The notes under the pieces are model-generated. The model was not told the DNA's origin, did not search any database, and saw nothing but the letters and a program-made list of their open reading frames with translations. Source: a virus (taxonomy: Duplodnaviria; Caudoviricetes). Taken from it: a stretch of DNA of 60,494 nt. A program made the translations under genes and the position numbers. Positions within the stretch are counted from its first letter, which is position 1, and each line of letters starts with the position of its first letter. This document shows, in pieces, positions 2,062 to 3,781 of this stretch. The stretch spans positions 1-60,494 of the IMG/VR virus record IMGVR_UViG_3300032331_000843; one strand, written 5' to 3'.

Positions 2062-3781
2062 TTGATTCGTCCTCTACCATCTGTATTCTTTTACCAATCC
2101 ATGCCATCACGGGTACAGCCATTGAGTTACCCATTGCCTTATACCGTGGCGCATCGGGAGAGTCAGGCTTGCCTCGCCAAGGGATATTTGTATATCCATC
2201 CGGAAAGCCTTGCAGTCTCTCGCATTCTGTTGGGGTAAGCCTACGGACTGCCATGTTCTGCAACACACCAGGGCTTTGGCTTCGAGTGAGCGTGCCTGAT
2301 ATATCTTCCTCGAACTTCATCTCATCAGGGCGGGCGTTCACATTGAATGCAATCTGTTGGTCTTGGGTCACGCTTAGAGTAAAAGCTTTCTCATCTGAAC
2401 CAAGGTATCCCTTGCCACCACCCTCGCATCCACCCCGAACCTTGAAGGCGTGGGCCACGAAAGTCTGAGCATGGTGCGACTGGACTGACGGACGTAACGC
2501 TTGCAACGCAGGTGTTACCTCTAAAGTTGTAGCACTAAAGTTGTTTGCCTTGGCATCTTCACGGATTGAATAGGCGACTGATGCTTGGTTGTCGCCCATC
2601 TGCGCACGCAATGTAGGAGATAGTTCTTCCGTAAAACGATTAGGATTACCCTCTCTCTTGGTAACGCCTGGCTCAAACCCATAAGCAACTGCATGGTTAG
2701 GGTAGCCACCGTCCCCGCCTGAGCGAAGGGTAGGGCTTACATCATTGCCAACATCTCTTGCTGCATCTGATTGAGTAAAACCAATAGAGTAAGCAACGCC
2801 TTGAGTGGCGGCGGCATCCAAGGTATACATCACCTCATCATTCCATCCACGCCCGTTCTGTTTCTTATCTCTACCTGATACATCTTGAATAGCGACAGAT
2901 TGAACAAGCGGGACATTGCCACCGCCAGTCCCCCAACGACTCGTTACCGTCTGACATACCTCACCCATCTCTTTAACACGAGAGTCTGCGGGATGAGTTT
3001 CATATACGATTAAATCTGTATGGTCTTTGTAGTCACGGGCTTTCAATGTGCTTGCCGTGCCGTCATCTGCATACTCACCAAAGGCAACCAAGCGGTTCGT
3101 TGTTACTAGAGTTTCTGATCCTCCTCCGAGGTCTCCTCCGTCTCGTCTGAGTGTCCCGACTCCTTCACCGTAGTTTCCAAAGCTGCTTGGAGAAAAGGCG
3201 GAAGCTTCTTCCCTCGCTTGTCTGCTCGGCGGAGGATTCCTGAGCAAGCTTTCCCGCTCAAATAAAACTTTTGCGGGAGCAAGCCAGTCTCCAAGACATC
3301 CGACAACAAACACACGTCTGCGTCTTTGGGGAACTCCGAAGTATTGAGCGTCAAGCACCCGATATGCGAACCCATACCCGAGTTCAGCCACCGCCCCGAG
3401 GAAGGAACCAAAGTCCCGTCCACCATTTGAACTGAGGACGCCTGGCACGTTTTCCCATACGAACCACTTGGGTCTAAACTTATCAAGAATTCCGCAATAG
3501 ACGAGGGCAAGGTTTCCCCTTGGGTCTTCAAGACCTTTGCGGAGTCCTGCGACTGAGAAGGATTGACACGGGGTTCCTCCGACCAAAAGCTCAACTGTTC
3601 CATTTGTATTCCACTCCTTATATTTAGTCATGTCGCCAAAGTTTGGCGTGTTTGGGTAATGATGCGCCAATACTTCTGACGGAAACTTCTCTATTTCTGA
3701 ATAGCCAACTGCCTCCCAACCTAGGGGATGCCAAGCCACACTTGCTGCCTCAACTCCTGAACATACTGATAGATATCTCAT
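2054..3781 (-). CDS. DNA (cytosine-5) methyltransferase with an expanded, modular variable region
   Basis: Motifs I (SVCSGVEA), IV (GGTPCQSFS), VI (ENVPG), VIII (PQRRRRVF), IX (RRLTPTECERLQGFP), X (YKAMGNS). Confidence 0.95.
   Translation of the reverse strand: MRYLSVCSGVEAASVAWHPLGWEAVGYSEIEKFPSEVLAHHYPNTPNFGDMTKYKEWNTNGTVELLVGGTPCQSFSVAGLRKGLEDPRGNLALVYCGILDKFRPKWFVWENVPGVLSSNGGRDFGSFLGAVAELGYGFAYRVLDAQYFGVPQRRRRVFVVGCLGDWLAPAKVLFERESLLRNPPPSRQAREEASAFSPSSFGNYGEGVGTLRRDGGDLGGGSETLVTTNRLVAFGEYADDGTASTLKARDYKDHTDLIVYETHPADSRVKEMGEVCQTVTSRWGTGGGNVPLVQSVAIQDVSGRDKKQNGRGWNDEVMYTLDAAATQGVAYSIGFTQSDAARDVGNDVSPTLRSGGDGGYPNHAVAYGFEPGVTKREGNPNRFTEELSPTLRAQMGDNQASVAYSIREDAKANNFSATTLEVTPALQALRPSVQSHHAQTFVAHAFKVRGGCEGGGKGYLGSDEKAFTLSVTQDQQIAFNVNARPDEMKFEEDISGTLTRSQSPGVLQNMAVRRLTPTECERLQGFPDGYTNIPWRGKPDSPDAPRYKAMGNSMAVPVMAWIGKRIQMVEDESNG
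3106..3603 (-). CDS. Nested alternative-frame gene resembling the M.EcoHK31I beta polypeptide
   Basis: Own RBS (TAAGGAG) ahead of ATG 3603; RWLNSGM..LLSDVLET..LRRADKRGKKLP resembles beta as I recall it. Confidence 0.75.
   Translation of the reverse strand: MEQLSFWSEEPRVNPSQSQDSAKVLKTQGETLPSSIAEFLISLDPSGSYGKTCQASSVQMVDGTLVPSSGRWLNSGMGSHIGCLTLNTSEFPKDADVCLLSDVLETGLLPQKFYLSGKACSGILRRADKRGKKLPPFLQAALETTVKESGHSDETEETSEEDQKL

What the first reader, a model, noticed from the sequence alone, without database searches (positions are those of the whole stretch)
3106..3620. Second protein encoded in an alternative frame inside the MTase catalytic core
Seen: a 165-aa ORF in the +1 frame overlaps motifs IV-VIII and has its own strong RBS (TAAGGAGtggaatacaaATG). 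Established: M.EcoHK31I needs a beta polypeptide encoded in an alternative frame within the alpha gene, and this ORF resembles it from memory (RWxNSGM, LSxVLET, RAxxRGxxLP). Unlike EcoHK31I, motif IX is here in the main frame and the nested ORF stops near the start of the TRD array. Inference: the nested subunit is a scaffold that docks interchangeable TRDs.
Basis: partly seen in the sequence, partly recalled or inferred. Interest (0 to 1): 0.7.

Follow-up and report, generated by a model that had tools for sequence, protein, structure and literature searches.

The report
Hidden partner gene inside phage methyltransferase
A second, conserved protein is encoded in a shifted reading frame inside the catalytic core of this phage's DNA cytosine methyltransferase gene, is predicted to bind that enzyme, and occurs unannotated in thousands of related phage and prophage genes.

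Summary
Window 3106-3603 (-) is a 165-aa ORF in the +1 frame of the 575-aa C5-methyltransferase gene (2054-3781, -). It has an AAGGAG Shine-Dalgarno site and spans motifs IV-VIII.

On this one sequence the open frame is only mildly unusual (1% of synonymous-codon shuffles). Comparison is decisive. Among 80 relatives picked by the main frame alone, the +1 frame stays open for at least 151 codons in 79. All 80 have a start codon and match the nested-protein profile. Synonymous variation in the main frame halves inside the overlap. After motif VIII the nested frame is better conserved than the main frame. Twenty-seven classical C5-MTases lack the ORF.

The family has 5,690 cluster representatives and was not annotated in any record examined (P1-like dmt, mycobacteriophage Omega, Bcep22). 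A complex model supports binding to the MTase (ipSAE 0.79; best control 0.00).

The C-terminal module of the nested protein weakly but consistently resembles the segment that classical enzymes carry in cis after motif VIII.

Best reading: a trans-acting structural subunit, architecturally like M.EcoHK31I beta. Homology to that protein could not be tested, and unlike EcoHK31I the main frame here keeps motif IX.

The parts
2054..3781 (-). Main gene: C5 cytosine DNA methyltransferase, 575 aa (P0002). Motifs I-VIII lie in residues 1-165, a long variable/TRD region in about 196-505, and motifs IX-X in 513-563.
   Evidence: PF00145 E 4.9e-54. TIGR00675 E 2.9e-55. Best solved relatives by sequence and by fold are M.HhaI and M.HaeIII.
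3106..3603 (-). Nested gene in the +1 frame: 165-aa protein (P0001), with its stop codon at 3106-3108.
   Evidence: phrog_16143 E 1.3e-9. 377 homologues of similar length. 5,690 cluster representatives. Selection tests.
3614..3620 (-). Shine-Dalgarno site TAAGGAG, 10 nt before the nested ATG (3601-3603). It is formed by the main-frame Lys-Glu-Trp codons.
   Evidence: An SD-like site sits before the nested start in 64 of 80 relatives picked by the main frame and in 97 of 159 relatives picked by the nested frame.
3199..3426 (-). Conserved core of the nested protein (residues 60-135). It overlaps main-frame motifs VI-VIII and the post-VIII stretch and holds most of the predicted interface residues.
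   Evidence: Invariant columns W72, G76, L86, E90, L100, E105, G107, A119, C120, G122, I123, L134 and P135. Interface list. Main-frame third-position entropy of 0.47-0.8 bits here, against about 1.4-1.8 outside the overlap.
3205..3339 (-). Nested residues 89-133: the module that resembles the segment classical C5-MTases carry in cis between motif VIII and the TRD.
   Evidence: hhalign of A2 against A4 aligns exactly this stretch, E 0.0098, probability 4%. Supported by blastp and by the segment HMM.
3314..3571 (-). Main-frame catalytic motifs read in the other frame: PCQ (3563-3571), ENV (3446-3454) and QRRRR (3314-3328).
   Evidence: One search gives the residue positions. Coordinates were computed from the start at 3781.
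2267..3169 (-). Main-frame variable region with several short TL-type target-recognition modules (residues about 205-505). It begins under the acidic tail of the nested ORF.
   Evidence: This region has low pLDDT when the MTase is folded alone.
2093..2245 (-). Main-frame motifs IX and X (residues 513-563).
   Evidence: PF00145 profile positions 253-323. Alignment to M.HhaI residues 261-317. Residues 510-523, 557 and 561 are in the predicted interface.

Best explanation
The MTase gene is dual-coding. From one mRNA, ribosomes make the 575-aa C5-methyltransferase. By independent initiation at an internal SD and ATG in the +1 frame, they also make a 165-aa protein.

The small protein is a trans-acting structural subunit of the same enzyme. 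On its own it is largely unfolded. Its conserved core (residues about 60-105) packs as added strands against the motif VI-VIII strands of the large domain. It also reaches motif IX, motif X and the first TRD modules.

It thereby supplies the element that single-chain C5-MTases carry in cis between motif VIII and the TRD, an element the main chain of this phage subfamily lacks. The two-polypeptide enzyme is the active orphan, probably multispecific, phage methyltransferase.

Shown: the ORF, its start signals, its conservation and purifying selection in that frame.
Modelled: binding to the MTase.
Inferred: equivalence to the cis segment, and a requirement for activity.
For: 1. Frame always the same. 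The nested match lies in the +1 frame of the MTase N-terminal half in the window and in 160 of 160 loci that were picked by the nested protein and have a complete N-terminus. The same holds in 9 of 9 annotated phage or plasmid records from Proteobacteria, Actinobacteria and Firmicutes hosts.

2. Set picked by the main frame only (590 of 591 candidate stretches confirmed, best 80 kept):
- The +1 frame is open for at least 151 codons in 79 of 80 (the other 117), while the +2 frame is open for only 3-74 codons.
- 80 of 80 have a start codon, and in 75 of 80 it lies 11-13 codons before the Pro of PCQ.
- 64 of 80 have an SD-like site.
- 80 of 80 match the nested profile at E <= 2.9e-48.

3. Synonymous constraint. 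Third-base entropy at four-fold sites is 1.75 bits upstream (n=19), 0.88 in the overlap (n=58) and 1.79 downstream (n=7); Mann-Whitney p = 1.8e-12. In main codons 181-195 the periodicity flips: position 1 has 1.40 bits and position 3 has 0.47.

4. Resampling test on 75 relatives. Observed versus expected nested-frame identity to the window is 0.50/0.27 (IV-VI), 0.70/0.27 (VII-VIII) and 0.65/0.26 (post-VIII). Main-frame identity in the post-VIII region is only 0.42. Observed identity exceeds all 200 resamplings in 62, 75 and 74 of 75 relatives.

5. Negative control. In 27 classical C5-MTases the +1 open stretch at ENV is 2-122 codons, and the nested HMM scores at most 4.1 bits.

6. Predicted complex. 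ipSAE 0.79 (median of 3 runs), best of 3 controls 0.00. That mark was reached by 58 of 80 solved complexes and 2 of 110 mismatched pairs. These counts hold only roughly here, because my own alignments were used. The runs agree in at least 69% of contacts and the partner's pLDDT is at least 64. No similar solved complex was found.

7. Complementarity with classical enzymes:
- hhalign puts nested residues 89-133 on the classical post-VIII segment, E 0.0098.
- blastp of Firmicute nested ORFs hits only that segment, best E 4.6e-4, against 0.007 for the best of 350 shuffled queries.
- An HMM of the classical segment scores up to 18.7 bits on nested proteins, at most -2.0 on the main-frame proteins of this subfamily, and at most -0.5 on shuffled nested proteins.

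8. Precedent. M.EcoHK31I needs a beta chain encoded wholly in another frame of the alpha gene (passages read in PMC2836561, and PMC3404938).
Against: - There is no expression, peptide, binding or activity data.
- The similarity to the classical cis segment is weak. hhalign probability is 4%. The blastp E-values come from a database of 27 sequences, and 2 of 350 shuffled queries also reached E < 0.01.
- Alone, the protein folds poorly (mean pLDDT 56). That fits a subunit that folds on binding, but it also fits a disordered regulator.
- The main frame already has every canonical motif, IX included, so nothing obvious is missing from it by motif count.
- In the model the nested protein also touches residues next to the catalytic Cys (74, 76-78) and motif VI. 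An inhibitor could do the same.
- A complex model is not a measurement.
- On the window sequence alone the open frame reaches only p of about 0.01.
Confidence: 0.65

Rival explanations
1. The nested protein is real and conserved but is not part of the enzyme's fold. It would be a regulator or inhibitor of the MTase (for example one that delays or limits methylation), or it would act on something else, such as host restriction or transcription control through its C-terminal basic helices.
For: - It folds poorly alone apart from two confident C-terminal helices at 117-130 and 136-155.
- The predicted interface includes residues beside the catalytic cysteine and motifs VI and VIII, which an occluding inhibitor would also touch.
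- The main frame has all ten motifs.
Against: - It has been strictly co-encoded with this MTase subfamily over very wide divergence, always in the same frame and position.
- Its most widely conserved module resembles an integral segment of classical MTases.
- The Firmicute versions lack the basic C-terminal helices altogether.
Confidence: 0.2
2. The +1 frame is reached by ribosomal frameshifting from the main frame. The product would be a truncated MTase N-terminus fused to the nested C-terminal part, not a separate protein.
For: - The same strand and an overlapping frame make this mechanically possible.
- Databases hold a few frame-hopping chimeras, for example P0133 (main to nested to main) and P0128.
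Against: - A start codon sits at a fixed position in 75 of 80 relatives, with an SD-like site in 64 of 80.
- In many loci a nested-frame stop lies directly before that start.
- I noticed no conserved slippery site, but I did not search for one systematically.
- The chimeras are rare: 12 long forms among 828 candidates, against 377 short forms. The one I could inspect sits at an 11-G homopolymer, which fits an indel.
Confidence: 0.05
3. The ORF is not translated. The open frame and the suppressed synonymous change would reflect a nucleotide-level constraint (RNA structure, an internal signal) or codon bias imposed by a conserved main-frame protein.
For: On the window alone, 1% of synonymous shuffles give an equally long open frame. 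The N-terminal roughly 25 nested residues are largely dictated by motif IV of the main frame.
Against: - The codon periodicity flips to the nested frame after motif VIII.
- Nested identity of 0.65 exceeds main-frame identity of 0.42 in that region and is far above the 0.26 expected from the main protein plus its codon usage.
- The frame is open in 79 of 80 relatives, while the +2 frame never exceeds 74 codons.
- The start codon and SD are conserved.
- 27 of 27 classical MTases lack the ORF.
Confidence: 0.03

Closest known systems
M.EcoHK31I (and M.EaeI) two-polypeptide C5-methyltransferase, alpha plus nested beta
   Same: The small chain is encoded entirely inside the large chain's gene in another reading frame. 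Its size is similar: I recall 176 aa for beta (from no call), against 165 aa here. In EcoHK31I the two chains must associate for activity (passages of PMC2836561, and PMC3404938). Here association is supported by a model only.
   Different: In EcoHK31I the large chain is reported to lack motif IX, which the small chain supplies. Here motif IX is in the main frame. This enzyme is an orphan phage MTase with a long multi-module variable region, not part of a restriction-modification pair. Sequence homology to EcoHK31I beta could not be tested.
M.AquI-type split C5-methyltransferase (alpha = motifs I-VIII, beta = distal variable region plus IX-X)
   Same: It is a natural two-chain C5-MTase (passage of PMC3404938). 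Relatives of the window gene are split this way, for example mycobacteriophage Omega gp127 and gp128.
   Different: In the window the main ORF is continuous from motif I to X. The extra chain is not a piece of the linear motif order but a separate product of the other frame. In Omega the nested ORF is present in addition to the split.
Classical monomeric C5-MTases (M.HhaI, M.HaeIII, Dcm-like enzymes)
   Same: The large-domain fold and motifs are shared. The segment these enzymes carry after motif VIII resembles nested residues 89-133.
   Different: In the classical enzymes that segment is in cis and in the main frame. Their +1 frame is closed: open stretches of 2-122 codons in 27 of 27 examined, with no match to the nested profile.
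Overprinted (same-strand overlapping) genes of phages and viruses
   Same: A long same-strand overlap, a product predicted to be disordered when alone, and reduced synonymous variation in the older frame.
   Different: Here the product is predicted to bind the protein encoded by the same nucleotides. The overlap is also conserved across phages of Gram-negative, Gram-positive and actinobacterial hosts and is not lineage-restricted.

Membership tests
M.EcoHK31I/M.EaeI beta subunit | Encoded wholly within the MTase (alpha) gene, same strand, alternative frame | tested here: met
   3106-3603 lies inside 2054-3781 in the +1 frame. The feature is as described in passages of PMC2836561.
M.EcoHK31I/M.EaeI beta subunit | Sequence homology to EcoHK31I or EaeI beta | not testable with these tools
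No tool returned that sequence. The papers are not held. Pfam and NCBIfam have no model that matches P0001. The E. coli search found only P1-like plasmids and a few chromosomal sites.
M.EcoHK31I/M.EaeI beta subunit | The large chain lacks motif IX and the small chain supplies it | tested here: not met
   The main frame carries motif IX at residues 513-531 and motif X at 551-563.
M.EcoHK31I/M.EaeI beta subunit | The small chain associates with the large chain and is required for methylation | tested here: inconclusive
   The complex model passes (0.79 against a best control of 0.00). That supports binding but does not show it. Requirement for activity is not testable here.
C5 cytosine DNA methyltransferase (PF00145), the main gene | Motifs I, IV (PCQ), VI (ENV), VIII (QxRxR), IX and X in order; profile match above the cut-off | tested here: met
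   PF00145 184 bits against a cut-off of 22. Motif positions. M.HhaI is the best solved match.
M.AquI-type split MTase | Motifs I-VIII and IX-X lie on two separate consecutive polypeptides | tested here: not met
   A single 575-aa ORF carries all motifs.
phrog_16143 (phage protein family annotated 'DNA methyltransferase') | Profile match | tested here: met
   E 1.3e-9, 38.7 bits, residues 10-118 on profile positions 23-130 of 139.
Functional same-strand overlapping gene | The frame is kept open, start signals are conserved, and purifying selection is detectable in the second frame across relatives picked without reference to it | tested here: met
   with the classical-MTase control.

The most novel reading that the evidence does not exclude
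A large, ancient subfamily of phage and prophage C5-methyltransferases, including P1-type Dmt, mycobacteriophage Omega and Bcep22, are obligate two-chain enzymes. The piece of the fold that classical enzymes place after motif VIII has moved into the +1 frame on top of motifs IV-VIII. One stretch of DNA therefore encodes both sides of a protein-protein interface. M.EcoHK31I would then be one sampled member of a widespread design, not an oddity.
Probability: 0.4. Interest if true: 0.8.

Novelty: new variant of a known kind. Interest (0 to 1): 0.68.

Why it matters
If this is right, annotation pipelines systematically miss a subunit of a very common phage anti-restriction enzyme. None of the 9 annotated records I examined lists it.

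Heterologous expression or specificity studies of these MTases, and REBASE-style assignments, would need both products.

It would also be one of the deepest and most widespread dual-coding regions known in bacterial viruses, with a clear and testable function. It would give a natural model for how an overlapping gene and its host gene co-evolve when their products bind each other.

Finally, the tiny swappable TRD modules of these multispecific enzymes may only make sense with the extra subunit present.

Tried and rejected
1. EcoHK31I or EaeI sequences and papers. PMC306636, PubMed 7870574 and DOI 10.1042/bj3140321 are not held. A distant DNA search of E. coli genomes gave 503 of 5,426 genomes, nearly all P1-like plasmids (486 of 508 places), and no recognisable EcoHK31I locus. 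Supplements of PMC2836561 were not opened and may hold the beta sequence.

2. Cluster names and earlier findings were unavailable.

3. Known folds for the nested protein:
- PDB sequence and profile searches gave nothing significant (best E 0.64 and 0.029).
- The model of the protein alone was too poor (pLDDT 56) to justify a fold search, so none was run on it.
- The ESM Atlas gave only unnamed viral clusters.

4. Fused forms (nested domain plus TRD, IX and X in one chain) as Rosetta-stone evidence. There are 12 long forms plus P0016, and 6 of the 10 longest profile hits I scanned. I do not rely on them. The one locus I could inspect (L039) switches frame at an 11-G run after an intact main-frame TRD module, so an indel or sequencing error is likely. 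L096 and L126 look like broken genes.

5. I looked for stand-alone, non-overlapping homologues and found none among the window, 160 loci and 9 annotated records. The DNA of a few distant long proteins (P0129-P0134) could not be inspected.

6. Literature searches for a described nested-ORF family in phage MTases found only EcoHK31I, AquI and an unrelated out-of-frame HNH insertion in actinophage methylases (PMC11855218; abstract and passages read).

7. Sequencing-run tools were not used. RNA coverage cannot separate two frames of one mRNA.
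Full report
**What is there.** The window is a complete 60,494-bp virus record with direct terminal repeats. On the minus strand, 2054-3781 encodes a 575-aa C5 cytosine methyltransferase (PF00145 E 4.9e-54; TIGR00675). Its ATG overlaps the stop of an upstream SF2 helicase gene. Motif positions are PCQ 71, ENV 110, QRRRR 152, motif IX 513 and motif X 551. About 310 residues of short TL-type recognition modules lie between motif VIII and motif IX.

Inside this gene, in the +1 frame of the same strand, 3106-3603 is a 165-aa ORF. It is preceded by TAAGGAG and a 10-nt spacer. 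It runs from main codon 60 to 225. So it covers motifs IV-VIII and ends under the start of the variable region.

**Is it more than chance?** For this sequence alone, only mildly. One percent of 20,000 synonymous-codon shuffles give an equally long +1 open frame.

The comparative evidence is of another order. The nested protein has 377 database homologues of similar length. A profile of 114 of them finds 5,690 cluster representatives at E <= 1e-3, 4,005 at <= 1e-10 and 697 at <= 1e-30, among 1.84 billion.

In the window and in 160 of 160 loci retrieved with the nested protein that have a complete N-terminus, the match is in the +1 frame of a C5-MTase N-terminal half. The frame is open for at least 144 codons in 160 of these 161 sequences; L157 has a stop. 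Those loci were chosen by the nested frame, so I drew a second set with patterns from MTase residues 1-165 only.

In that main-frame-picked set of 80:
- The +1 frame is open for at least 151 codons in 79 (the other 117), while the +2 frame is open for only 3-74 codons.
- All 80 have a start codon (ATG 37, TTG 40, GTG 3).
- The start lies 11-13 codons before the Pro of PCQ in 75 of 80.
- 64 of 80 have an SD-like site.
- All 80 match the nested profile at E <= 2.9e-48.

The SD is made of the conserved main-frame Lys-Glu-Trp codons.

**Selection in the second frame.** In the same set (76 non-identical sequences including the window), third-base entropy at four-fold sites is 1.75 bits upstream of the overlap (19 sites), 0.88 inside it (58 sites) and 1.79 downstream (7 sites). 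Mann-Whitney p is 1.8e-12, and several synonymous sites are completely fixed.

After motif VIII the codon periodicity flips. Main position 3, which is nested position 2, is the least variable at 0.47 bits. Main position 1, which is nested position 3, is the most variable at 1.40 bits.

A resampling test kept each relative's main-frame protein and its own codon usage. It expects 0.26-0.27 nested-frame identity to the window. Observed values are 0.50 (motifs IV-VI), 0.70 (VII-VIII) and 0.65 (post-VIII). In the post-VIII region main-frame identity is only 0.42. Observed identity exceeds all 200 resamplings in 62, 75 and 74 of 75 relatives.

As a negative control I used 27 classical C5-MTases, drawn from PF00145 matches in 201 genomes of one bacterial class. 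One locus from an unpublished genome was left out, and two lacked the motif pattern. Their +1 open stretches at ENV are 2-122 codons (median 31), and none matches the nested profile (at most 4.1 bits). It is met outside the subfamily, which defines the feature as specific to it.

**Breadth.** tblastn finds the frame in 194 of 50,697 phage records and 535 of 72,556 plasmid records, mostly P1-like.

I checked nine annotated records:
- an uncultured myovirus;
- mycobacteriophage Omega;
- P1-like phage RCS47;
- Burkholderia phage Bcep22;
- Streptococcus phage Javan246;
- a Brochothrix phage;
- Vibrio phage VpaJT_1;
- a Bifidobacterium plasmid;
- a Listeria plasmid.

In all nine the match is in the +1 frame of the annotated MTase, and no nested CDS is annotated. 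The two plasmid gene tables are incomplete by design.

The part shared by all is the core from the Trp-x-Asn-Ser-Gly-Met stretch through the Leu-Ser-Asp-Ile-Leu-Glu stretch to the Tyr/Phe-Leu-Ser stretch. The basic C-terminal helices are missing in the Firmicute versions.

**What the protein does.** It has no Pfam or NCBIfam family and matches only phrog_16143. Folded alone, it is mostly low confidence (pLDDT 56) apart from helices at 117-130 and 136-155. The MTase alone folds confidently in residues 1-195 and 510-575, but not in the variable region.

A complex prediction with both alignments passes its controls:
- ipSAE is 0.79 (median of three runs) and the best of three controls is 0.00.
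- That mark was reached by 58 of 80 solved complexes and 2 of 110 mismatched pairs. These counts hold only roughly here, because my own alignments were used.
- The runs agree in at least 69% of contacts, and the partner's pLDDT is at least 64.

The best-determined contacts put nested residues 74-78 and 88-91 against the MTase strand 137-147 (motifs VII-VIII). Further contacts go to 164-187 (post-VIII), 510-523 (motif IX), 557 and 561 (motif X), a few TRD residues, and residues 74 and 76-78 beside the catalytic Cys. I found no solved complex of this kind, so recall of a known structure is unlikely. This is still a model, not a measurement.

**A structural idea.** Classical monomeric enzymes of the Dcm-like type carry a characteristic segment between motif VIII and the TRD. 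Nested residues 89-133 look like that segment.

- Profile-profile alignment picks exactly that pairing, E 0.0098, though hhalign's probability is only 4%.
- blastp of the Firmicute nested ORFs against 27 classical enzymes hits only that segment. The best E is 4.6e-4, against 0.007 for the best of 350 shuffled queries, two of which fell below 0.01.
- An HMM of the classical segment scores up to 18.7, 14.3 and 11.3 bits on nested proteins, with hits in 82 of 121. It scores at most -2.0 on the 79 main-frame proteins of this subfamily and at most -0.5 on shuffled nested proteins.

The signal is weak but consistent in position. It gives a simple mechanism: the subfamily's main chain lacks this element, and the nested gene supplies it in trans. 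From memory, not from a call, that segment belongs to the end of the large domain next to the hinge in M.HhaI. That would fit where the model puts the nested core.

**Comparison with what is known.** Passages of PMC2836561 and PMC3404938 state several things about M.EcoHK31I. It needs two chains. Beta is encoded wholly in another frame of the alpha gene. Alpha carries motifs I-VIII, X and the TRD, while beta carries motif IX. N-terminal deletions of beta weaken association.

The layout here is the same. The division of motifs is not, because motif IX is in the main frame. I could not obtain the EcoHK31I or EaeI sequences, so homology stays open. I think it more likely than not, but that is a judgement, not a result.

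M.AquI-type splitting does not apply to the window. It does occur in relatives: Omega gp127 and gp128 carry the nested ORF in addition to the split.

Six literature searches found no description of a nested-ORF family in phage MTases. The library lacks most subscription journals, and REBASE was not available.

**Verdict.** The gene is real with about 95% confidence. The subunit model is the best-supported mechanism (about 65%). A regulator or inhibitor role is the main rival (about 20%). I rate it a new variant of a known kind: the EcoHK31I design, but with motif IX retained in the main chain, in an orphan multispecific phage enzyme. It also appears to be the general design of a very large, unannotated family.

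Noticed in passing
L003 (Escherichia phage RCS47, NC_042128.1), dmt gene, locus 886-4173: The P1-like dmt C5-MTase domain appears to be interrupted inside the PCQ motif by a roughly 330-aa in-frame insertion whose ends look like an intein. The nested ORF begins only after it and shares just the C-terminal half with the window's protein.
   Followed up: no
L039:2640-2720; also L002, L044, L045, L085, L104, L121: An 11-G homopolymer sits where the nested tail meets the first TRD modules in L039. There it fuses the nested frame to TRD, IX and X and truncates the main frame. Seven of the 160 loci scanned (window excluded) have G or C runs of 7 nt or more in this region. This could be assembly error, or a slippage switch between single-chain and split forms.
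   Followed up: partly
L002 (Mycobacterium phage Omega), locus 1691-2995: The MTase is naturally split into gp127 (motifs I-VIII) and gp128 (TRD, IX, X). A 157-aa nested ORF lies inside gp127, so the enzyme would have three polypeptides.
   Followed up: partly
window 3778-3781: The MTase ATG overlaps the TGA of the upstream 492-aa SF2 helicase gene (ATGA). This suggests translational coupling within an early or replication module.
   Followed up: no
window 3187-3355 against P1-like plasmids: About 74% nucleotide identity over about 170 nt links this environmental phage to E. coli P1-like plasmids. It is confined to the dual-coding stretch after motif VII, a DNA-level footprint of the double constraint.
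   Followed up: no
window 2267-3169: The variable region holds many short TL-type modules (for example around residues 209, 244 and 496, with further degenerate ones). This fits a multispecific phage MTase. The region is not confidently folded by AF2.
   Followed up: partly
P0139 and P0205: Some database proteins carry the nested domain after an in-frame N-terminal extension that looks like a TRD module (P0139), or before a long unrelated C-terminal region with no Pfam match (P0205). Their DNA could not be inspected.
   Followed up: no
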